A stretch of 64,000 nt of DNA, taken from a virus (taxonomy: Duplodnaviria; Caudoviricetes). Of the stretch, positions 3,057-43,283 are shown piece by piece (the stretch's first letter is position 1; the number at the start of each line of letters is the position of its first letter). The notes beneath the pieces are model-generated. The model was not told the origin of the DNA and ran no database searches. It saw nothing but the letters and a program-made list of their open reading frames with translations. Made by a program: the position numbers and the translations under genes. Location of the stretch: IMG/VR virus record IMGVR_UViG_3300005077_000712, positions 1 to 64,000 of that record; one strand, 5' to 3'.

Positions 3057-3416
3057 TTATGAATTTTCAACTTTCAATACATCTCTAATAATACCTTCAA
3101 AAACTTGTTTAGGAAAAGCTCCTGAAGCCATTTGTGGATTTTCATTCATAGGGATTATTAAAAAACTTGGTATTCCTTGTATTCCAAATAATTTTGCAAG
3201 TTCTTGTTCTTTTTCTGTGTTAATTTTGTAAATATCAATTTTACCTTCATATTCTTTTGAAAGTTGTTCAAGTATAGGTGATACCATTTTGCATGGTCCA
3301 CACCAATCTGCATAAAAATCAATTATAGCAGGTTTATCACCTTTAAAAGTAAATTCTTCATTATTTTCATAATCAAATACTTTTTCTATAAAAGTTTCTT
3401 TTGTTAAATTTTCCAT
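3057..3416 (-). CDS. trxA: Thioredoxin
   Basis: IDFYADWCGPCK active site; start moved to MENL, which has an AGAGG SD upstream. Confidence 0.92.
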   Translation of the reverse strand: MENLTKETFIEKVFDYENNEEFTFKGDKPAIIDFYADWCGPCKMVSPILEQLSKEYEGKIDIYKINTEKEQELAKLFGIQGIPSFLIIPMNENPQMASGAFPKQVFEGIIRDVLKVENS

Positions 3417-3462
3417 ATTACCTCTTATATTCAAAAATTTTTAAAAAATTATATTTTTTTAT

Positions 3463-7142: not shown

Positions 7143-7290
7143 ATGTTAGATGAAAAAATTAAAATCTCCATAATTTAAATTTTTAAATATCAACCGAGTC
7201 TTTCCTTATTCAAGAATGATTCATGCTGACTTATGGAGCGTGAATATTGTTAATCTACCTCATAACTTTACCTCCTTTATTAAAATAATG

Positions 7291-7373
7291 AGCCTAGTAC
7301 TGGAGTCGAACCAGTGTGGAATTACTTCTACGGCTTACAAAACCGTCCCAATCGACCTCTATGGGAACTAGGC
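7291..7373 (-). tRNA. tRNA with TGT (Thr) anticodon and long variable arm
   Basis: GCCTAGT/ACTAGGC-U73; ACGGT-TTTGTAA-GCCGT arm; 14-nt variable region AGAAGTAATTCCAC. Confidence 0.7.
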
Positions 7374-8754: not shown

Positions 8755-9000
8755 TTATTTTCCCATATTTAATATTGGAAATTTATCAACATAACTTTCA
8801 GTTTTTATAATTTCATTATCATTTTCATCAAATAAAATAAAATTCTTTTGATCTCCAATTCTTCTAAAATAATCATTACCACCATCAACAGCTATAGCAC
8901 CACATTTACATTCAACAAAATCATGTCTATATATTGACTCAATAACCGTACCACATAATTTACACTTTGCTTTATTTTTTATCATAAATATGTCCACCAT
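8755..9000 (-). CDS. Small Zn-binding protein
   Basis: CKLC...RHDFVECKCGAIAVDGG. Confidence 0.7.
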   Translation of the reverse strand: MVDIFMIKNKAKCKLCGTVIESIYRHDFVECKCGAIAVDGGNDYFRRIGDQKNFILFDENDNEIIKTESYVDKFPILNMGK

Positions 9001-10592
9001 CTCCCATTATGTTGAGGATAATCTAAACATTCCCAAAAACATCCTTTATTAAATCCTTTATTCCATACATGCCAATGGCCAAAATACCATCTCTTTGGTT
9101 GAAATTCTTTAAGAATCATAGATAACCAAATTCTTGATGGATCATCATACTTGTCATATCTATTATTAAGAACACCAAATTCCATAGGACATGTATGACT
9201 AAATACAATATCAATACCATCAAAATTTTTTATGTTATTTACAGAAGTCTCATAATCCTTTTCAGTAATTAACTCTTCAGGAAACCAATCAAACCCTGGA
9301 GTCCTGTATTTTTTATCTATACTCTCAGCACCACCAAGAAATAAACATCTTAAATCATTTATAACCTTTACAGTACCTCTTGGCATATAAATTACATTAG
9401 GCAGTAATTCATCTGTTGTTCTTGCATTGAGAGATGCAAAACAATTTCCAGTAAAAGCTACCTTTCCATCATATCGAGTTATAAGTGTACCCAACGGCAT
9501 AGTAAAACAAAATACATCATCGTTATAATTTATTATTTTACTATTTACTTTATAATTTTTTATAATATCTGAAATAGATATTTTATATATATTTTTTTTC
9601 CCAAAAGCATTTATATGTTGTTTACTTTGTTTTATAGTACAAATTTTATTAGAAGTTATACATAATTCTTGAATTATGTCTGCATCACTTTTATTTATAG
9701 TTGAAAATGTAATTCTATTATTAGAACATCTATGTCCATCTGTAAATTCTAATTCTGATAAAACTATATGTTTTTGTTCAATACTTAATTCTCTAAAAAA
9801 ATTAGGAAAACATTTTTTGGAGTTTAACATTTCATAAATTTTTCTTGAATAATCTCCATAAATTCTTATATAAAAAGGCTGTAATTTATTAAATTTTCCT
9901 TTCTTACACTCTTTAATTGTAAAGGGGAAATTTATATTATTAAGTAATTTAGTTAATCTAACTATTTTATCTTGCCTACTTAATTTAAATTGTATTCTTA
10001 TTTTTTTTGAGTTTGGTTTATAAATAGAATTATCCACAATAGTTGAATCACATACTACCCATACTAATAATCTAAGTAATTCATCTGAAATATTATATTT
10101 ATTATTACAAAATCCCGTTAATCTAAAATCATTTTCATTAATTTGTTTTTGTATTATTTCACTTGCTTTTATTTTATTATTATTTATAATAATATTATGG
10201 CCTAAAGTTACCATCTGTTTTGTATGAAATGATTCAATACTAATAATATCTTTTGCATATTTCTTAATATAATTTATTGGCTTACTATAAGATATTTCTC
10301 CTGTATTAATTTCAAACTGTGCTATTAAATCTTCATTAGTTATAAATTCAATATCTTTCCATCCATCTTTTGTTAAAACATCAGAACCTTTAGCTATACA
10401 TTCGTGATTTCCATCAAGCCATAAAACTTTAGTATCATGTGCTTTTATAAGCCCTTCAACCCAAGATGTTTGATGGGGCCAAAAACCAAAATCCCCAAGT
10501 GCTATTAAATACTCAGGATTTTGCTTATTTATTAATTTATTTAAGTGATAAAACTCCCCATGCAAATCACCACATATTGTTACTTTTCCCAT
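8982..10592 (-). CDS. Metallophosphoesterase containing an intein
   Basis: Start moved to MGKVTICGDLHG because the upstream in-frame part overlaps tRNA-Glu; LGDFG, GNHE, SHT and GHWH motifs. Confidence 0.85.
   Translation of the reverse strand: MGKVTICGDLHGEFYHLNKLINKQNPEYLIALGDFGFWPHQTSWVEGLIKAHDTKVLWLDGNHECIAKGSDVLTKDGWKDIEFITNEDLIAQFEINTGEISYSKPINYIKKYAKDIISIESFHTKQMVTLGHNIIINNNKIKASEIIQKQINENDFRLTGFCNNKYNISDELLRLLVWVVCDSTIVDNSIYKPNSKKIRIQFKLSRQDKIVRLTKLLNNINFPFTIKECKKGKFNKLQPFYIRIYGDYSRKIYEMLNSKKCFPNFFRELSIEQKHIVLSELEFTDGHRCSNNRITFSTINKSDADIIQELCITSNKICTIKQSKQHINAFGKKNIYKISISDIIKNYKVNSKIINYNDDVFCFTMPLGTLITRYDGKVAFTGNCFASLNARTTDELLPNVIYMPRGTVKVINDLRCLFLGGAESIDKKYRTPGFDWFPEELITEKDYETSVNNIKNFDGIDIVFSHTCPMEFGVLNNRYDKYDDPSRIWLSMILKEFQPKRWYFGHWHVWNKGFNKGCFWECLDYPQHNGRWWTYL
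9444..10400 (-). mobile_element. Intein (319 aa) with LAGLIDADG-like domain
   Basis: GNHE|CIAKGSDVLTKDGW...RYDGKVAFTGN|C; central LLVWVVCDS and LEFTDGH. Confidence 0.85.
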
Positions 10593-10612
10593 TTTAATAC
10601 TCTCTATTTTAT

Positions 10613-10684
10613 TAGGGCCATGGAGAATCGAACTCCAACTAACGGGCTGAAAACCCGTTGTACTAACCATTATACGATGACCCC
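10613..10684 (-). tRNA. tRNA-Glu(TTC)
   Basis: GGGGTCA/TGGCCCT acceptor; ACGGG-TTTTCAG-CCCGT arm. Confidence 0.88.
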
Positions 10685-10687
10685 ATA

Positions 10688-10821
10688 TGGGGGATAGATG
10701 GGACTTGAACCCATAACCTTCCGATTACAATTCGATGAAATGTCTTCTACCGCTATTTCTATTAGAAATAGAATTTTAAGAATCCATTTTTTTAACACTC
10801 TACCGTTGAGCTACTATCCCC
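10688..10821 (-). ncRNA. tRNA-like RNA with an inserted Y-RNA-type helix (element C)
   Basis: GGGGATAG/CTATCCCC-CA acceptor, normal D and T arms; about 58-nt insert between D and anticodon-like arm carrying TAGCGGT...CATC. Confidence 0.7.
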
Positions 10822-10826
10822 ATATT

Positions 10827-10918
10827 AAAAAATTACATGAATAATTAATAACAATTTTTTTTCTTTTTACCAAATTGTAGTTGATGTAACTGTTATAACC
10901 GCTATGTAATCATTTTTT
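10827..10918 (-). ncRNA. Putative Y-like RNA (element B)
   Basis: Terminal stem ATTACAT/ATGTAAT, AGCGGT internal loop, ATAACAGTT/AATTGTTAT helix, ACATC; downstream of Ro60. Confidence 0.65.
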
Positions 10919-10926
10919 CCTTAATA

Positions 10927-11024
10927 AAAATGATGGTGTGATTTTACGAATCAAGTTTTTTGTTCAGTAGCCAAAGTTTAAATTTGATTTGAAGTAACTT
11001 AATTCACCGCTACACCATCATTTT
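10927..11024 (-). ncRNA. Putative Y-like RNA (element A)
   Basis: 13-bp terminal stem AAAATGATGGTGT/ACACCATCATTTT, AGCGGT loop, GAATTAAGTT/AACTTGATTC helix, ACTTC; 11 nt from the Ro60 stop. Confidence 0.7.
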
Positions 11025-11035
11025 ACTATTTTATT

Positions 11036-12655
11036 CTATTGTTTGTCAACTCGTTTTTCTATTTCATCCCAAGTATTTATAATTTTTTCTGCAAATACAG
11101 CTTCTTTACCTGTCCAACCTGTTAAAATTGCACCTCTATAAATATTTTCAGGAAGTATAGAGTTATTATACCCTGCTGTTTGAACAGAAAATACATTAAC
11201 TTTTCTATTAACTGTATTTCTATATTCTTCAACAAGTTTTAATACATTTATGTTTCTAATATTAACTATATAATTTCTATAGTCATCTGTATTTAAACCA
11301 TATAATCCACCATGACCAGCTTGCATATCTGAATAAATAAATATATTATCATAATGAGTTTTATTTTTTAGAGCATCTCTAAAAAATATCCATATTCCGT
11401 TTTCAGTTGAACCACCTACATATTTAGGTGCATTTATACTATAAGTTTTATTAGCTGTATTAAGTTGAGTTAAAACTCCATTTCTTTTAGAAACAGAAAT
11501 TATTTCAAGTTTATCTCCAAAATATCCAACATAACCTTCATCAGAATTTATAGCTGTCATAAAACTTGATAAATTATTAATCTCTGCATTTACAACAGTT
11601 CCATATTCACTTGTTAATGCACCCCAAGCTGAACCCGAATTATCAGAAAGACAAATAGTTTTTCCTTTTAGTTTAGGAAAGTTATTCATTGCAATATCAA
11701 TACATTCTTCAAGAGTATCAAGAATTATTGCTTTATGATTAATATTTTCTTTTTCTATATATTTAAAAGCAGTATAGTATCTGAATGGAAATTGTTTTCC
11801 ATAAGGTACACCATTTTTTAAATATTCACAAACTTCTTTTGCAATTTCAACATCTTCAATTTCTGAAAAAATTCCTCTGAGATTACGAAGTAAAGCCATG
11901 TGCGGGACTTTAATAGTATTAAGAATTTCCTTCCAAGTTTTGCCTGCTGATTTAAGTCTTTCCCAAGTAGAATTTTCATCTTCAAGTTCAAGAACTCCTT
12001 GTGATTTCATAAGTTCATTTATTACATCTGAATGAGCATGAGATATACGAACTAAGTCACGAATCATACCTTTAGTTTGATATTTACTAATTTGATATTT
12101 ATTAAAAGTTTGAAGTTTTTCTGCCCAAGATCTTTTTACAATATTAGGCAAATTATTCTTTGAACCTTTTAAATACATATAGTATTCAAACTGATTAGTA
12201 ATATCATCAGGACGTAAAACTATTTTCTTTCCTATTTCTCTCATGAAATAAGGATTTGTTTCATTAAACTTTACACGATCTTTATGAAGCGCTGCTCTGA
12301 TAAATATAACAGCAGGATTCATACGCATAAGATAATTGTTTCTTAAATCAGATGCAAATTCGATAGTTGCTTTGAAATCATAATCAAAGGCATTATCAAT
12401 TGCTTCTGTCATTATATCAACAGTAGAAGTTTTAGGTTCTGAATATCCCATTTTACCTAATGTTGATTTAGAGCCATCTACACCTTTTCTATAGTAAGAA
12501 GGTTCACCAAAAATACCTGAAGCTAATACAATTTTAAGAGTATCTATCGGATTAAGTTTATAACTTGTTCCACCCATAAAATTAGTTACTACTTCTCCGC
12601 TATGCTTTCTAACTGTTGCTGTAGTTTTAAAAGCATGTGTTTTCAATCTGCTCAT
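11036..12655 (-). CDS. Ro60/TROVE-domain RNA-binding protein (Rsr-like)
   Basis: TROVE motifs (MRMNPA, MALLRNL, FPFRY) and vWA MIDAS DNSGS...SDMQ. Confidence 0.9.
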   Translation of the reverse strand: MSRLKTHAFKTTATVRKHSGEVVTNFMGGTSYKLNPIDTLKIVLASGIFGEPSYYRKGVDGSKSTLGKMGYSEPKTSTVDIMTEAIDNAFDYDFKATIEFASDLRNNYLMRMNPAVIFIRAALHKDRVKFNETNPYFMREIGKKIVLRPDDITNQFEYYMYLKGSKNNLPNIVKRSWAEKLQTFNKYQISKYQTKGMIRDLVRISHAHSDVINELMKSQGVLELEDENSTWERLKSAGKTWKEILNTIKVPHMALLRNLRGIFSEIEDVEIAKEVCEYLKNGVPYGKQFPFRYYTAFKYIEKENINHKAIILDTLEECIDIAMNNFPKLKGKTICLSDNSGSAWGALTSEYGTVVNAEINNLSSFMTAINSDEGYVGYFGDKLEIISVSKRNGVLTQLNTANKTYSINAPKYVGGSTENGIWIFFRDALKNKTHYDNIFIYSDMQAGHGGLYGLNTDDYRNYIVNIRNINVLKLVEEYRNTVNRKVNVFSVQTAGYNNSILPENIYRGAILTGWTGKEAVFAEKIINTWDEIEKRVDKQ

Positions 12656-12851
12656 TTTAATCCTCTTTACTTAAATTATTAGTCAAATAGCCAAGATCAC
12701 ATAAATATTTAAAATTTTTAAAACTTATTAGATTATATTGAACCCAATTATAAATTATATCTATATGATGATCTTTAGAGACTGAATTTAATTTTTTAAT
12801 TATATGATGTTTAGTTAATCTTTTTTCCATTTTATATTTCCTTTGTTAATG

Positions 12852-12923
12852 CGGAGTTACGGGGAATTGAACCCCGATCCAGTGATAGACAGTCACCGAT
12901 AATAGCCTTTATAAGATAACTCC
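12852..12923 (-). tRNA. tRNA-Asp(GTC)
   Basis: GGAGTTA/TAACTCC-G73; loop CTGTCTA. Confidence 0.88.
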
Positions 12924-12967
12924 ATAATTAATTTACATCTTTTTATGTATTCTTTTTTTAAATCATT

Positions 12968-13034
12968 TGAAACCGATGGGACTCGAACCCATATCAGACC
13001 TTTAGATCTGCTCTAACCATTGAGCTACGATTTC
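12968..13034 (-). ncRNA. tRNA-like RNA with a 4-nt anticodon loop
   Basis: Canonical acceptor, D (GCTC-AATGGTTA-GAGC) and T arms, but AGATC-TAAA-GGTCT in place of a 7-nt loop. Confidence 0.75.
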
Positions 13035-13104
13035 TATGATAAATATCCGTCGATATTTATCTACCACCACTTTTAATTCTGTGGAATGAATATAAAGCTT
13101 TATG

Positions 13105-13176
13105 TGGATACGGAGGGATTTGAACCCTTTCTTTCTCGTTGCAAGCGAGATGCTTTCCCAATTAAGCTACCGACCC
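13105..13176 (-). tRNA. tRNA-Ala(TGC), bulged acceptor stem
   Basis: G3.U70 pair; TCTCG-CTTGCAA-CGAGA arm. Confidence 0.8.
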
Positions 13177-13393
13177 ATTTTTTTATTCTTTATTAATTAA
13201 AGCAAAAAATCCAAAATTCACTAATGCAAAAAATATACGACTAAACATTTTTTCAACATCTGCACCTTGAATTAGAAGTATGGTAGCTGAAATTATTCCG
13301 AGACAACCCCATATAAGCATCATATTACTAATAGTTTTAATGATCTCTTGTTTGATCTTCATTTGTATCTCCTTTGTATCTCCTTTGTATAAT

Positions 13394-13468
13394 TAGCTTA
13401 CTTCAGATTTGAACTGAAACTTGATCGCTTCTAAGGCGATTCTCTCTACCAAATTGGAGTAGTAAGCC
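13394..13468 (-). tRNA. tRNA-Leu(TAG), short variable loop
   Basis: GGCTTAC/GTAAGCT-A73; ATCGC-CTTAGAA-GCGAT arm; variable CAAGT. Confidence 0.85.
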
Positions 13469-13471
13469 ATG

Positions 13472-13542
13472 CTCTCCTGTCAGGAATCGAACCGAAACTT
13501 ATTGATTCAAAGTCAATCGTGCTACCTTTACACCACAAGAGA
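13472..13542 (-). tRNA. tRNA-Gln(TTG)
   Basis: TCTCTTG/CAGGAGA-G73; ATTGA-CTTTGAA-TCAAT arm. Confidence 0.85.
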
Positions 13543-13555
13543 ATTTTTTACTATG

Positions 13556-13628
13556 GGAGATTAATGGGAATTGAACCCATATCTCTTGAATCACAATCAA
13601 GGGTAATAACCTTTATACCATAATCTCC
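13556..13628 (-). tRNA. tRNA-His(GTG)
   Basis: G-1:C73; loop TTGTGAT. Confidence 0.9.
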
Positions 13629-13655
13629 GTATTATTTTTAAAGAATATATAAAAT

Positions 13656-13729
13656 TCGGAGTGGTGGGACTCGAACCCACGTCTTCTCGAATCCAAATCG
13701 AGTGACTCAAACCACTAGCCTACACTCCG
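13656..13729 (-). tRNA. tRNA-Pro(TGG)
   Basis: CGGAGTG/CACTCCG-A73; loop TTTGGAT. Confidence 0.92.
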
Positions 13730-14156
13730 TGATTTCTACCCTTGTTTAAAGTTGCGGTAGAAGTACAACAAACTCAATGCCTAACTGGACTAAATTGAGT
13801 CTCTGATACTTGTTTTAAATTGCTTCAGGTGGCAATTACAACTTTTTATAGTTGTGTTTGTTTTTGAAAAAACTGAATTTAGAAAGTGATATTTCTTTTC
13901 ATATTTATATCTACTTTTTCAGTTTTTATAAAATTGCAATCATTACAAATATATTTTTTTGTAATGATTTTACTTCCATCATTAATAATTCTAACTTTAA
14001 TATTCTGTTTCCCACAATTTTTGCATTTTACCATATAAACTCCTTTTTAAGAAAAAAGTAAAAATAAAAGTAATCCTATCGCAAGCAATGAATGTCCTGA
14101 ACAAAATAAAACTATTATTAAAATCCACCACCACATTTTATTTCTCCTTTATAATT

Positions 14157-14229
14157 CTGCATGGGCAGGGATCGAACCTGCATTTTTCGATTTAACAGAT
14201 CGATGTTCGACCAATTGAACTACCATGCA
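14157..14229 (-). tRNA. tRNA-Asn(GTT)
   Basis: TGCATGG/CCATGCA-G73; TCGAT-CTGTTAA-ATCGA arm. Confidence 0.92.
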
Positions 14230-14906
14230 ATATTATATGTCTTTTCAAAATTTAATTTTTGTTTTCTATAATCAACAAAAATATTTATTTTCTCTAAATC
14301 TTCCCCTGTTAATATTTTAAGCTTTAATGGAAATTGTGTCCATTTTGCTATATCTTTTTCTGTTACATATCCTTTTATTTCATAATAACATTGCTCATCT
14401 TCAATAAAAAAATCAGGTATGTATCTTCTATACTTTTCTTCAAACTTATACAAAAATGATTCATTAGGTCTTCTCCATTGAATATTTTTTCTATCAAGAT
14501 ATTGAGCAAACTGTACTTCCCACATACCATGAAATTTAATACCATTATATTCAAAAGTCCTATGCTTTGCAAAAGATGTATGCCAAGTATCATCTTTAAT
14601 TTTTTTACTTATAGTTTTTTTTATTTTCTCTTTATGTTCTTCAGATAAACATATTCCTATTTTTTTCTTAGAACCATTTATCATTTTTTGTTTATTTATT
14701 AAATAATTAGGATTTTTATCACACTCATGAGCAACATGATACCCCAAATATTTTTTATTAAAAAGCATATTGCAATATTTACATTTATATAGCAACGATT
14801 CATCAAAAGTATATGTTAATATTTTGTGAATTGTTTTTATATGCCGTATTAAATGATGTTTATAACCAAATTTCCTTCCACAATATTCACAATAAAATTC
14901 ATTCAT
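14220..14906 (-). CDS. Free-standing putative homing endonuclease (C2H2 zinc fingers, NUMOD3-like, PD-(D/E)xK domain)
   Basis: Start MNEFYCEYCG after AGAGG; CxxC...H...H twice; YIPDFF...YYEIKGY; stop codon lies inside tRNA-Asn. Confidence 0.75.
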   Translation of the reverse strand: MNEFYCEYCGRKFGYKHHLIRHIKTIHKILTYTFDESLLYKCKYCNMLFNKKYLGYHVAHECDKNPNYLINKQKMINGSKKKIGICLSEEHKEKIKKTISKKIKDDTWHTSFAKHRTFEYNGIKFHGMWEVQFAQYLDRKNIQWRRPNESFLYKFEEKYRRYIPDFFIEDEQCYYEIKGYVTEKDIAKWTQFPLKLKILTGEDLEKINIFVDYRKQKLNFEKTYNIAW

Positions 14907-21422: not shown

Positions 21423-21914
21423 TTATATAAATTTATCACAAACTTTTGTATTTGTTAATTCACCTGCTATATCACCAAGTAGCTTACATTTATACTTTGT
21501 TTTATAAATAAGTTTCCATTTACAATTTAAACAATTTTTTTCTTCAGTTGCAATACCAAAGTTAACTTCATCATTCTCAATTTTATTCTTAATTAAAAAA
21601 TCATATAGATCCTCAACTTCAGTTAAATCATCTTCCACATCTTTCCCTGTATGAATATTTCTATAAATAACTTTCTTACTACAAGTTTCATATAACCACC
21701 ATCCAATCCATTCTCCTTCATCATTAAATATTTCTTTTAATAAATGAAGAAGAGCATCATATTTAAGATTTTTAGTATTAAACATAACCCAAGAATCACA
21801 TACTAATTCTAATGATTTAGATACCTCTTTATCAATTTTATCTTGTTTTTGTATTTGCCCCATTATTTTTATAAAAACTTCTTTTGTTATCATATTATCC
21901 TTCAAATTTATCAT
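21423..21914 (-). CDS. Hypothetical protein
   Basis: 163-aa ORF with WIGWWLYE; C-terminal Cys cluster. Confidence 0.7.
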   Translation of the reverse strand: MINLKDNMITKEVFIKIMGQIQKQDKIDKEVSKSLELVCDSWVMFNTKNLKYDALLHLLKEIFNDEGEWIGWWLYETCSKKVIYRNIHTGKDVEDDLTEVEDLYDFLIKNKIENDEVNFGIATEEKNCLNCKWKLIYKTKYKCKLLGDIAGELTNTKVCDKFI

Positions 21915-22581
21915 AGTAATTAAAAACTTCTATTAACTGATTTCTATCTTTTATAGAATAAACATAATCCCCATCATTACAACGGACACAATAGTTTTCC
22001 TTATGAATTTGTTTATTATAAGGTACCTTTACAACATCTATATAAAATGTTTTTGGCTCAAAAGGAAATGATTTAATATACTGTCTACTTAAAATATCTT
22101 CTACACTCCCAGTAAATGTATCATACCTATCTTCACCTTGAAAAATTACTGCATCAAGGTAATATGCCTTTCCTTCTTTAGTTTCTTTAAAAATTGAAGA
22201 TAATCTTAAATTTTGATAATATGTTCCATCACACATTCCATATTGCCATTCTTCATCTATCCCAGTTATAGGACATATAGGTTGATGAAGGCAAAGTTTT
22301 TTTACTGCACTTGAGATTACTTGTGCTGTAAATGGTGCTGATCCACCACTCTGTCCTGATTCACTAAACTTTTTAACCAATGCAAGAACTTCAGGATAAA
22401 ATGGTTCTAATATAGGTCTATCATTTGGGCCATGGCATGATTTAGAAAGTATCTCTAATTCTTTTTCTGCTTTTAATAATCCATTACTTTTCTTTTTTTT
22501 CTTAAATATTTTTGTAAATGTTTTAAACAGGTTCATTAAATATGGATTCTTTTGTATTTGTACTTCACATGTATTATTCAT
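21895..22581 (-). CDS. Conserved phage hypothetical protein
   Basis: SGQSGGSA...PITGIDEEW motif. Confidence 0.7.
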   Translation of the reverse strand: MNNTCEVQIQKNPYLMNLFKTFTKIFKKKKKSNGLLKAEKELEILSKSCHGPNDRPILEPFYPEVLALVKKFSESGQSGGSAPFTAQVISSAVKKLCLHQPICPITGIDEEWQYGMCDGTYYQNLRLSSIFKETKEGKAYYLDAVIFQGEDRYDTFTGSVEDILSRQYIKSFPFEPKTFYIDVVKVPYNKQIHKENYCVRCNDGDYVYSIKDRNQLIEVFNYYDKFEG

Positions 22582-35215: not shown

Positions 35216-35281
35216 ATATAACAACGGGTAAGCGTTCGCTTCACACACCCTTCGGGTGTCGCTTACCCTGTTCAGTTGTAC
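35216..35281 (-). repeat. attC site
   Basis: atataac-aacgggtaagcg...cgcttaccc(t)gtt-ca-gttgtac. Confidence 0.85.
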
Positions 35282-35291
35282 GAAAGACGGC

Positions 35292-35498
35292 TTAACCCCC
35301 ACCATAAACATAAAAACCTTCTGCATCTTTAATCTCTCTCGGCTCAAGCGATAAATCAGCATGGGTATATCCCAACTTTTCAAGAACAAGTTTTCTCGCT
35401 TGCTCTGAATTTTCAGCATATGCGAAGGCTATGCCTGCTGTATAATCTCTTAATACATTTTCCCATACATATAATTTTAATTTACTTATTGCTTCCAT
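35292..35498 (-). CDS. Cassette ORF, hypothetical
   Basis: KLYVWENVL...AFAYAE...YGGG; followed by an attC. Confidence 0.7.
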   Translation of the reverse strand: MEAISKLKLYVWENVLRDYTAGIAFAYAENSEQARKLVLEKLGYTHADLSLEPREIKDAEGFYVYGGG

Positions 35499-42500: not shown

Positions 42501-43283
42501 TTACTTACTCTTTGCTACTTGATCCATAAGACCCCATAACAAGATATTTACTTTGGTATCTTTTACAACACTTTTGATACCTTTAGTTTTAGAACGCCTT
42601 TTCTCGCCTTGAAATTCAATTCCACCTTTAATTACATTTTCCTGCACTACATTGAAAACTGTAAAGAGGTCATTTTGAAAATCATCTTCACGTCTTGGAG
42701 TGAGAAGAGTAGAAGAATTAATTTTGCTTGTATCACCATAGATACCAATTTTAGCTTCATTAGCAAATTGTTCTTTTTCTGTTTGATTCAGTTTAATACT
42801 TTTGTAGGTATCAACTTGAGTCATAATCTTATCACTACTCTTTGCAAAGTTAAAAATCAGTTCTTCAATATCACCCACTTGCATACCTGCATGTCTTTGA
42901 TTTATTCCACCAAAGATATTTTCAGCTATTGTGAGACCATTACTACAAACAAGTCTATAAAGACCTGCAAGAGCTTGAGCTGAAAGTCTACCATTATGGC
43001 TGTTAAATACTGATATTTCAGGGGCAACATCTTTAAGAGAAAGATTTAAAAAACTTTTGTGACGAAATCTTACGTTATGAACAGCATAAGGAGAAACAGC
43101 ACCTTTTCTTGTTTTTGATTGTTTTGCAAAAGTTGGATAATATCCAAATTCCTCAAAACCTTTAATTATATCTATAGTTGGAACCATGACATATTTTTCA
43201 GACATCTTTTCGCTTGGTAATGTTGAAAATATTGAGGGAGCTTTTTCTCGAAGTTGTTCAGTAGTCAACACATTTTGTAACAT
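42501..43283 (-). CDS. DUF932-family protein
   Basis: SEKYVMVPT, NSHNG, RLVCSNGL and FNVVQEN motifs. Confidence 0.8.
   Translation of the reverse strand: MLQNVLTTEQLREKAPSIFSTLPSEKMSEKYVMVPTIDIIKGFEEFGYYPTFAKQSKTRKGAVSPYAVHNVRFRHKSFLNLSLKDVAPEISVFNSHNGRLSAQALAGLYRLVCSNGLTIAENIFGGINQRHAGMQVGDIEELIFNFAKSSDKIMTQVDTYKSIKLNQTEKEQFANEAKIGIYGDTSKINSSTLLTPRREDDFQNDLFTVFNVVQENVIKGGIEFQGEKRRSKTKGIKSVVKDTKVNILLWGLMDQVAKSK

What the first reader, a model, noticed from the sequence alone, without database searches (positions are those of the whole stretch)
10827..12655. Phage Ro60 followed by a tandem set of Y-like RNAs sharing an AGCGGT...GTTAC(T/A)TC motif
Seen: directly after the TROVE stop are two 90-100 nt elements with different sequences but the same fold: terminal stem, 5'-AGCGGT bulge, compensated 9-10 bp helix ending GTT, AC(T/A)TC and a small hairpin. 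Established: Ro60 orthologs are encoded next to their Y RNAs, often with RNA repair genes. Inference: several Y RNAs with different effector loops could redirect one Ro60 to different partners during infection.
Basis: partly seen in the sequence, partly recalled or inferred. Interest (0 to 1): 0.8.

Follow-up and report, generated by a model that had tools for sequence, protein, structure and literature searches.

The report
Short Y RNAs beside phage Ro60
Just after its Ro60 gene (Ro60 is a ring-shaped RNA quality-control protein), this large phage encodes two small structured RNAs of a conserved family that sits next to Ro60 genes in many related phages, so they are very probably Ro60's "Y RNA" partners: new examples of a known kind, not a new kind.

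Summary
On the minus strand, 12 nt after the TROVE/Ro60 stop, lie two elements (11024-10927 and 10911-10831). Each has a terminal stem, an unpaired AGCGG, a 9-bp helix, UUAC(U/A)UC, an A-rich loop, the return strand, and an A/U-rich loop ending in C.

A covariance model built only from relatives in other phage contigs finds exactly these two in the whole 64-kb window (E 5.5e-10 and 3e-9; next best 0.026). The model recovered 77 distinct copies. Both helices covary: 92% of cells paired against 59% in shuffles.

Every copy that shares a locus with a TROVE gene is on its strand. Bacillus phage G (497 kb) has five copies just upstream of its TROVE gene and one in the nearby tRNA cluster, with none elsewhere. 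Some relatives carry the same stem module joined to a tRNA-like domain, as in published YrlA Y RNAs.

The protein folds as Ro60 with an intact MIDAS site.

Phage Ro60 with adjacent Y-like RNAs is already known (Chen 2014; Thermus phage phiLo 2025). These are therefore new members. They are short, lack a tRNA-like domain, lack the CGAA motif and match no Rfam family. Transcription and Ro60 binding remain untested.

A third, rearranged copy inside the neighbouring tRNA-shaped gene was reported separately by this scan.

The parts
11036..12655 (-). Ro60 orthologue (TROVE HEAT-repeat ring plus vWA domain), 539 aa
   Evidence: Pfam TROVE E 1.4e-9. PHROG 850 'RNA-binding protein', residues 18-517, E 3.6e-39. 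Best PDB sequence hits are phage phiLo Ro60, 9KOP/9L5Y. The AlphaFold model's top 13 Foldseek hits are all Ro60 structures, TM 0.56-0.74. MIDAS residues D338-x-S340-x-S342, T417 and D443 are invariant.
11020..11049 (-). Sigma-70-like promoter match TTGACA-18-TAAAAT overlapping the TROVE stop. It would start transcription within the 5' strand of element 1's terminal stem.
   Evidence: Best match (11 of 12) in 8800-14300. This is a consensus match only, and promoter-like sites are not enriched in this AT-rich region.
10927..11024 (-). Y-like RNA 1. Terminal stem 11024-11012 / 10939-10927, AGCGG 11011-11007, helix 11006-10998 / about 10956-10948, UUACUUC 10997-10991, 34-nt loop, 3' loop 10947-10940.
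   Evidence: Fold z -5.2. R1 model 40.6 bits, E 3e-9. Covariation with six relatives in an alignment not fitted to the model.
10831..10911 (-). Y-like RNA 2. Terminal stem 10911-10904 / 10838-10831, AGCGG 10903-10899, helix 10898-10890 / about 10855-10847, UUACAUC 10889-10883, A-rich 28-nt loop, 3' loop 10846-10839.
   Evidence: R1 model 43.1 bits, E 5.5e-10. Its fold alone is unremarkable, z -0.9.
10688..10821 (-). tRNA-shaped RNA with acceptor, D and T arms. A roughly 58-nt insert after position 26 carries a third AGCGG-N9-UUUCAUC module in circularly permuted order: return strand, AAAAUUC, 7-bp stem capped by AAU, GCGG, forward strand.
   Evidence: Rfam tRNA 43.5 bits with a 74-nt insert. 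The minimum-energy fold shows the capped module, z -3.0. The helix pairs only 8 of 11, and no second permuted example was found. This scan reported it separately.
10612..10685 (-). tRNA-Glu(UUC), next gene in the same-strand RNA array. Together with the tRNA-shaped RNA it gives RNase P sites that could define 3' ends of the upstream RNAs.
   Evidence: ARAGORN and Rfam. In relatives, Y-like RNAs sit 1-5 nt from flanking tRNAs.

Best explanation
Elements 1 and 2 are small non-coding Y RNA-like RNAs that partner the phage's own Ro60.

Docking module (conserved). This comprises the terminal stem, the internal loop with AGCGG on the 5' side and an A/U-rich loop ending in C on the 3' side, the 9-bp helix, and the unpaired UUAC(U/A)UC. 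It is the likely docking site for the Ro60 ring.

Effector module (variable). The variable loops (48% A overall; 34 and 28 nt in the window) are the likely effector-binding part. By analogy with Deinococcus Y RNA and phage phiLo Yrl1/Yrl2, they would tether Ro60 to a host partner such as the exoribonuclease PNPase, or gate Ro60's cavity.

Biogenesis. The RNAs are probably made from the same-strand RNA array (Ro60, Y1, Y2, tRNA-shaped RNA, tRNA-Glu) and cut out by tRNA-processing enzymes.

Shown here: the family, its structure and its strict linkage to Ro60 genes. Inferred: transcription as discrete RNAs, Ro60 binding, and the tether function.
For: - A model built only from relatives finds just these two sites in the window.
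- There are 84 hits, 77 distinct. G9, C10, G12, U24, C26 and C29 are invariant, and the C closing the 3' loop is present in 76 of 77.
- 91.8% of pair cells are paired against 59% in shuffles and 42-49% when the partner is slid. All 16 pairs show double changes. RNAalifold on an unfitted alignment gives the same two helices.
- All 54 hits in 30 TROVE-anchored metagenome loci are on the TROVE strand. The same holds for the viral loci.
- In the whole 497-kb phage G genome, 6 of 6 significant hits lie within 4 kb of gp540 TROVE.
- The closest relatives (63-65% TROVE identity) also place 3 copies directly downstream of TROVE and share the window's GU|AGCGG variant.
- The same module carries T-arm / closed acceptor-like stem-loop / D-arm domains in L029, L009 and L072. 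The published mycobacteriophage ET08 YrlA locus has the same architecture (PMC4201824).
- phiLo Ro60, the best PDB match of this protein, binds two adjacent Yrl RNAs and forms a complex with PNPase (PMC12135203).
- Copies lie flush between tRNAs in relatives. All 5 of the larger contigs with such copies encode TROVE.
Against: - There are no expression or binding data for this phage or any member of this subfamily.
- The window's two RNAs lack the CGAA / GNCGAAN0-1G motif that the literature ties to Ro60 binding. They read GUAGCGG and AUAGCGG.
- No Rfam family matches, including metazoan Y_RNA.
- Element 2 is not thermodynamically distinctive on its own.
- Five small contig fragments with a copy showed no TROVE gene, although these are only 3-38% complete.
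- The covariation counts come from an alignment fitted to the model.
Confidence: 0.8

Rival explanations
1. They are cis-acting elements rather than free RNAs. They could be Ro60 binding sites in the untranslated region of the Ro60 mRNA for autoregulation, or processing and stability signals for the tRNA operon.
For: They directly abut the TROVE ORF, 12 nt after the stop here and 70-470 nt before the start in relatives. No terminator separates TROVE from element 1 in the window.
Against: Position relative to TROVE flips between upstream and downstream while the structure is kept. Some copies lie far from TROVE, flush between tRNAs, where processing would free them. In L001-type loci a promoter-like site precedes the array, and a hairpin with a U-run, seen by eye but not flagged by the scan, lies between the array and TROVE. 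Known relatives (YrlA, phiLo Yrl1/2) are free RNAs.
Confidence: 0.1
2. They are structured small RNAs that work with something other than Ro60, for example a host RNA chaperone or nuclease through the A-rich loop. On this view the linkage to Ro60 reflects shared residence in the tRNA/RNA-gene island.
For: The loops are 48% A. Copies occur inside tRNA arrays several kb from TROVE. The CGAA motif is absent in the window.
Against: Five of the six copies in the 497-kb phage G genome lie in the 1-kb gap in front of TROVE. Strand concordance is total. The part that is conserved is the stem module, not the loop, and that module is shared with YrlA-type RNAs.
Confidence: 0.07
3. They are decayed tRNA genes or a selfish repeat with no RNA-level function.
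For: They lie in a tRNA array. The neighbouring gene is a tRNA with an insert carrying the same motif.
Against: Elements 1 and 2 have no D or T arm. The sequences differ while the pairs are kept by compensatory changes across 77 copies, and the unpaired nucleotides are invariant. That pattern indicates selection on an RNA structure. In 100 bacterial and archaeal loci carrying the bare 14-nt motif, none has the structure.
Confidence: 0.02

Closest known systems
YrlB and YrlA of Salmonella Typhimurium and other bacteria, and YrlA of mycobacteriophages (Chen et al. 2014, PMC4201824)
   Same: They are encoded within 4 kb of the Ro60 gene on the same strand, often several per locus. The 5' and 3' ends pair, a purine-rich motif sits at the stem/loop junction, a second helix follows, and a conserved YUAY (here UUAC) opens the loop. 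In relatives (L029, L009, L072) the same stem module carries the YrlA tRNA-like domain. The ET08 locus read here shows three tandem RNAs with the same layout.
   Different: The window's two RNAs have no tRNA-like domain. In that respect they resemble the short YrlB rather than YrlA. They also lack GNCGAAN0-1G: the invariant element is AGCGG, and the preceding GA|UC closing pairs are swapped for GU|AC or AU|AU. Model R1 does not detect the GC-rich ET08 RNAs. The link therefore rests on shared architecture and on intermediate loci, not on a single model.
Yrl1 and Yrl2 of Thermus phage phiLo with phiRo60 (NAR 2025, PMC12135203; PDB 9KOP, 9L5Y)
   Same: This is a phage Ro60 with two short Y-like RNAs encoded next to it, each with a stem-bulge-stem docking region. 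phiRo60 is the best sequence and structure match in the PDB to the window's protein.
   Different: The phiLo RNAs lie upstream of the gene and were picked out by a CGAA motif. Binding was shown there (KD about 17 nM) and a PNPase complex was formed. Nothing has been tested for the family described here. Protein identity is only about 20%.
Metazoan Y RNAs (Rfam RF00019) and Deinococcus radiodurans Yrn1
   Same: The overall logic is the same: a terminal stem with an internal loop or bulge as the Ro60 site, plus a variable loop as the effector module (the PNPase tether in Deinococcus). The GGGUUAU after the upper stem of human Y RNAs (recalled from memory) loosely resembles GGUUACUUC.
   Different: No Rfam match at E up to 10. 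The GGUCCGA bulged helix is absent. The resemblance to GGGUUAU was not tested.

Membership tests
Bacterial/phage Y RNA-like RNAs (Yrl; Ro60-associated ncRNAs) | Encoded within about 4 kb of a Ro60 orthologue, on the same strand | tested here: met
   Element 1 starts 12 nt after the TROVE stop and element 2 is 15 nt further on, both on the same strand. The same rule holds for every family member that shares a locus with TROVE.
Bacterial/phage Y RNA-like RNAs (Yrl; Ro60-associated ncRNAs) | 5' and 3' ends pair into a stem, followed by an internal loop and a second helix (stem-bulge-stem), then a large loop | tested here: met
   Folds. All 16 pairs show compensatory changes, 92% paired. Independent RNAalifold result.
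Bacterial/phage Y RNA-like RNAs (Yrl; Ro60-associated ncRNAs) | GNCGAAN0-1G / CGAA motif near the 5' end (Chen 2014; phiLo 2025) | tested here: not met
   The window reads GGUGUAGCGG and UUACAUAGCGG. In relatives the junction is YGAAGCGG, and 32 of 77 read CGAAG. AGCGG is the invariant element instead.
Bacterial/phage Y RNA-like RNAs (Yrl; Ro60-associated ncRNAs) | Conserved YUAY at the start of the loop after the helix | tested here: met
   UUAC in both elements. Across 77 copies, U24 and C26 are invariant and A25 is present in 74.
Bacterial/phage Y RNA-like RNAs (Yrl; Ro60-associated ncRNAs) | Physical association with Ro60 in cells or in vitro | not testable with these tools
   This needs Ro60 immunoprecipitation or gel-shift assays.
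YrlA subclass (tRNA-mimic Y RNAs) | Internal domain with T-arm, closed acceptor-like stem-loop and D-arm | tested here: not met
   No tRNA hit from ARAGORN or Rfam inside elements 1 and 2. The domain is present in relatives L029, L009 and L072. In the window it occurs only in the neighbouring tRNA-shaped RNA, in permuted order.
Rfam Y_RNA (RF00019) or any other Rfam family | Match to the curated covariance model | tested here: not met
   Nothing at E up to 10 over 10500-13300 except tRNAs and chance hits. Nothing on the elements in five related loci.
Ro60 / TROVE protein family | HEAT-repeat ring plus vWA domain with a MIDAS site | tested here: met
   Pfam TROVE. Foldseek top 13 hits are all Ro60 structures over 519-598 aligned columns. 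DxSxS, T and D are invariant. The model is of moderate quality (pLDDT 73.7).

The most novel reading that the evidence does not exclude
This phage lineage uses a Ro60 recognition code of its own. Unpaired AGCGG, UUACUUC and an A/U-rich 3' loop ending in C replace the CGAA/GGUCCGA element. The Y RNAs are produced as passengers of tRNA arrays and cut out by RNase P and tRNA 3'-end processing enzymes. Arrays of two to six Y RNAs with different A-rich or multi-hairpin loops let one Ro60 engage several host partners during infection, for instance to handle tRNA or rRNA damage inflicted by host defences.
Probability: 0.3. Interest if true: 0.65.

Novelty: new member of a known kind. Interest (0 to 1): 0.5.

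Why it matters
Short Y RNAs without a tRNA-like domain have mostly escaped computational discovery. Chen et al. say so explicitly.

The stem-module model built here finds them directly. It recovered 77 distinct RNAs in phage G-like and actinophage-like contigs, in arrays of up to five or six, some embedded in tRNA arrays.

This gives three things:
- a ready set of mutational targets (AGCGG, UUACUUC and the C closing the 3' loop) for asking how phage Ro60 recognises its RNAs;
- evidence that the CGAA motif is not universal;
- a cultured system, Bacillus phage G, in which to test what phage Ro60-Y RNA particles do.

The general idea that phage Ro60 comes with neighbouring Y-like RNAs is already published, so this extends a known picture rather than opening a new one.

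Tried and rejected
- Rfam gave no family for the elements, at gathering and at E-value thresholds, in the window or in five related loci.
- The R1 model did not detect the published ET08 Y RNAs or Gordonia phage Rabbitrun. The link to YrlA therefore rests on reading the ET08 sequence and on intermediate loci such as L072.
- Listeria phage A511 was tried because a related phage has abundant unexplained RNAs upstream of an Rsr-like gene (PMC12282133). There was no significant hit, best E 0.11, so that expression evidence could not be borrowed.
- The bare 14-nt motif scan is noisy. About 75 of the 120 viral hits, and all of the 100 bacterial/archaeal hits checked, lack the structure.
- A custom search for other circularly permuted modules found nothing beyond chance: 10 real hits against 6 in shuffled sequence.
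- RNA-repair context: only metallophosphoesterases next door, plus a below-threshold RNA-ligase hit 8 kb away. This is no support for a repair operon.
- No intrinsic terminator was found after TROVE or after the elements on the minus strand.
- Supplementary tables of Chen 2014 are not held. I could not check which phage G RNA they listed.

Full report
**What is there**

The window is the first 64 kb of an 89-kb IMG/VR phage record estimated to be 41% complete. It is AT-rich and carries 18 tRNA genes, a tmRNA and a group I intron, almost all on the minus strand.

ORF 11036-12655 (minus strand, 539 aa) is a Ro60 orthologue:
- Pfam TROVE, E 1.4e-9.
- PHROG 850, residues 18-517, E 3.6e-39.
- The best PDB sequence matches are the Ro60 of Thermus phage phiLo, 9KOP and 9L5Y.
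- An AlphaFold model (pLDDT 73.7) has as its top 13 Foldseek hits only Ro60 structures from phiLo, Xenopus, human and Deinococcus, aligned over nearly the full length.
- The vWA MIDAS residues DxSxS...T...D are invariant in 14 homologues.

**The observation**

Reading the minus strand, element 1 begins 12 nt after the stop codon and spans 11024-10927. It has a 13-bp terminal stem, unpaired AGCGG, a 9-bp helix, UUACUUC, a 34-nt loop, the return strand, GUAAAAUC and the 3' strand of the stem. Element 2 (10911-10831) has the same order of parts with different helix sequences.

Element 1 folds far better than shuffles (z -5.2). Element 2 does not (z -0.9). AGCGGT occurs 7 times in the window, and three of these lie within 260 nt on this strand.

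**Is it more than chance?**

Thirteen viral contigs encode a TROVE protein 49-58% identical to this one. In them the same arrangement appears two or three times upstream of TROVE on its strand.

I aligned 12 such elements from relatives only and imposed the two helices. From this I built covariance model R1. With filters off over the whole window and both strands, R1 finds element 2 (43.1 bits, E 5.5e-10) and element 1 (40.6 bits, E 3e-9). The next best hit is at E 0.026. This is an independent confirmation, because the model had never seen the window.

**The family**

R1 recovers 84 hits, 77 of them distinct. The consensus runs as follows:
- a terminal stem closing with G-A paired to U-C;
- A-G-C-G-G, with G9, C10 and G12 invariant;
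- a 9-bp helix of free sequence ending in a G-C pair;
- U-U-A-C-(U/A)-U-C, with U24, C26 and C29 invariant;
- a loop of 15-125 nt (median 23) that is 48% A;
- the return strand;
- AAUAUUC, with the final C present in 76 of 77.

On a 51-sequence set, 91.8% of pair cells are standard pairs, against 59% after shuffling and 42-49% when partners are slid. All 16 pairs show double compensatory changes. That alignment is fitted to the model. I therefore also ran RNAalifold on a plain MAFFT alignment of the seven elements from the window and its closest relatives. It gave the same two helices, with 11 of 14 pairs showing compensatory change.

**Linkage to Ro60**

- In 30 metagenome loci anchored on TROVE, all 54 hits are on the TROVE strand.
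- The closest relatives (63-65% protein identity; L154-L156) place three copies directly downstream of TROVE, as in the window. They share its variant junction, GU|AGCGG paired with AC in place of GA|...|UC, which is itself a compensatory swap.
- In the complete 497-kb genome of Bacillus phage G (TROVE gp540, 51% identical), R1 finds five copies in the 1-kb gap just upstream of gp540. A sixth lies 3.7 kb downstream in the tRNA/tmRNA cluster. There is nothing else below E 0.01.
- A motif-only scan of viral contigs, blind to TROVE, gave 120 loci. About 32 of them carry the full structure. Sixteen of those show TROVE within 3.5 kb on the same strand.
- The remaining structured copies mostly sit inside tRNA arrays, 1-5 nt from the flanking tRNAs. 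Among contigs with such copies, the five larger ones all encode TROVE elsewhere. Five small fragments (3-38% complete) do not.
- As a negative control, 100 bacterial and archaeal loci carrying the same 14-nt motif gave no R1 hit.

**Link to known Y RNAs**

Chen et al. 2014 (PMC4201824) define bacterial and phage YrlA by four features. These are location within 4 kb of Ro60 on the same strand, a 5' GNCGAAN0-1G motif, a YUAY that opens the loop after the stem, and an internal tRNA-like domain of T arm, closed acceptor-like stem-loop and D arm.

In L029, in L009 (downstream copy) and in the GC-rich contig L072, the very same module (GA|AGCGN, 9 bp, UUACUUC ... AUC|UC) encloses exactly such a domain. 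L072 has five tandem RNAs, of which at least two are of YrlA type.

The published ET08 locus, read directly, has three tandem RNAs of the form stem-GCCGA..-helix-GGUUA(C/U)CUC...CAUGU-stem. That is the same architecture.

The window's elements are therefore short members of the Y RNA-like superfamily that lack the tRNA-like domain, comparable to Salmonella YrlB. They fail one literature criterion, since CGAA is absent.

The 2025 phiLo study (PMC12135203) shows that a phage Ro60 binds two adjacent short Yrl RNAs and forms a PNPase complex. It also states that Y-like RNAs were already reported for mycobacteriophages, CcrColossus and phage G. The concept is therefore established.

**How it probably works**

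- Docking. The invariant unpaired nucleotides flanking a helix of free sequence are what a protein-recognition site looks like. This is inference.
- Effector. The loops differ between copies, ranging from A-rich single strands to a conserved multi-hairpin domain of about 165 nt in the first RNA of L001-type arrays. This fits the tether model, but it is inference.
- Biogenesis. A strong promoter-like site overlaps the TROVE stop (11049-11020, 11 of 12 matches). Similar sites precede the arrays in L001 and phage G. Element 2 ends 6-10 nt before a tRNA-shaped RNA, and relatives have copies flush between tRNAs. Excision by RNase P and tRNA 3'-end enzymes is therefore plausible. This too is inference.

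**The neighbour at 10688-10821**

This is a tRNA-like RNA (Rfam 43.5 bits, with a 74-nt stretch in place of the anticodon arm). It holds a third AGCGG-N9-UUUCAUC. Upstream of that motif lie, in order, a return strand, AAAAUUC, and a 7-bp stem capped by AAU. This is the module in circularly permuted order.

With the insert removed, what is left looks like a 75-nt tRNA-Thr(UGU) with a weak anticodon stem. The helix pairs only 8 of 11, and I found no second example. I hold this reading at about 50-60%. The scan's own follow-up on that site reached the same reading.

**Verdict**

The elements are new members of a known kind. What this work adds is a model of the docking module, a census of the family, and evidence that CGAA can be dispensed with. 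Transcription and Ro60 binding remain to be shown.

Noticed in passing
window 10688-10821 (-): A tRNA-shaped RNA whose anticodon region carries a third AGCGG...UUUCAUC module in circularly permuted order. Without the insert it resembles tRNA-Thr(UGU). It has four 5' G residues and ends in ...CCCCCA, so a G-1:C73 pair as in tRNA-His is possible.
   Followed up: partly
window 12968-13034 (-): A 67-nt tRNA-like gene with intact acceptor, D and T arms, but with a 5-bp stem capped by a UAAA tetraloop where the anticodon loop should be. Rfam tRNA scores it 51.9 bits; ARAGORN does not call it. It lies just upstream of the Ro60 gene.
   Followed up: no
window 7290-7373 (-): An 84-nt tRNA called Thr(UGU) with a long variable arm, which is unusual for tRNA-Thr.
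   Followed up: no
L001:2542-2758, L003:2534-2764, L004:2531-2762, L011:2534-2762: In relatives the first RNA of the array carries the same docking module around a conserved multi-hairpin insert of about 165 nt. The insert is not tRNA-like and matches no Rfam family.
   Followed up: partly
L072:4690-5310 (-): A GC-rich, actinophage-like contig with five tandem Y RNAs upstream of TROVE. At least two have full T-arm / closed acceptor-like stem-loop / D-arm domains. This locus bridges the AT-rich family and the published YrlA RNAs.
   Followed up: partly
L014:1700-2390 and NC_023719 412775-412840: Bacillus phage G has five tandem family members between gp539 and gp540 (TROVE) and a sixth after tRNA-Gly in the tRNA/tmRNA cluster. 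None is annotated in the record.
   Followed up: yes
L154:4338-4440: The third downstream RNA of the closest relative has the docking module plus a single T-arm-like hairpin (GCAGG UUCAUAC CCUGC). This recalls Deinococcus Yrn1, which has only a T arm.
   Followed up: no
contig behind L095 (G009: 35219-35482 and 42547-42780): One phage contig encodes two TROVE proteins, of 549 and 590 aa.
   Followed up: no
window 3057-3434 (-); L001:2200-2480: A thioredoxin gene sits immediately upstream of the Y RNA array in L001-type relatives (WCGPC motif). A thioredoxin is also present in the window's RNA-gene island.
   Followed up: no
window 21895-22581 (-): Homologue of Tad3, an inhibitor of the type I Thoeris defence system (Pfam PF25185, E 1.9e-21).
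   Followed up: no
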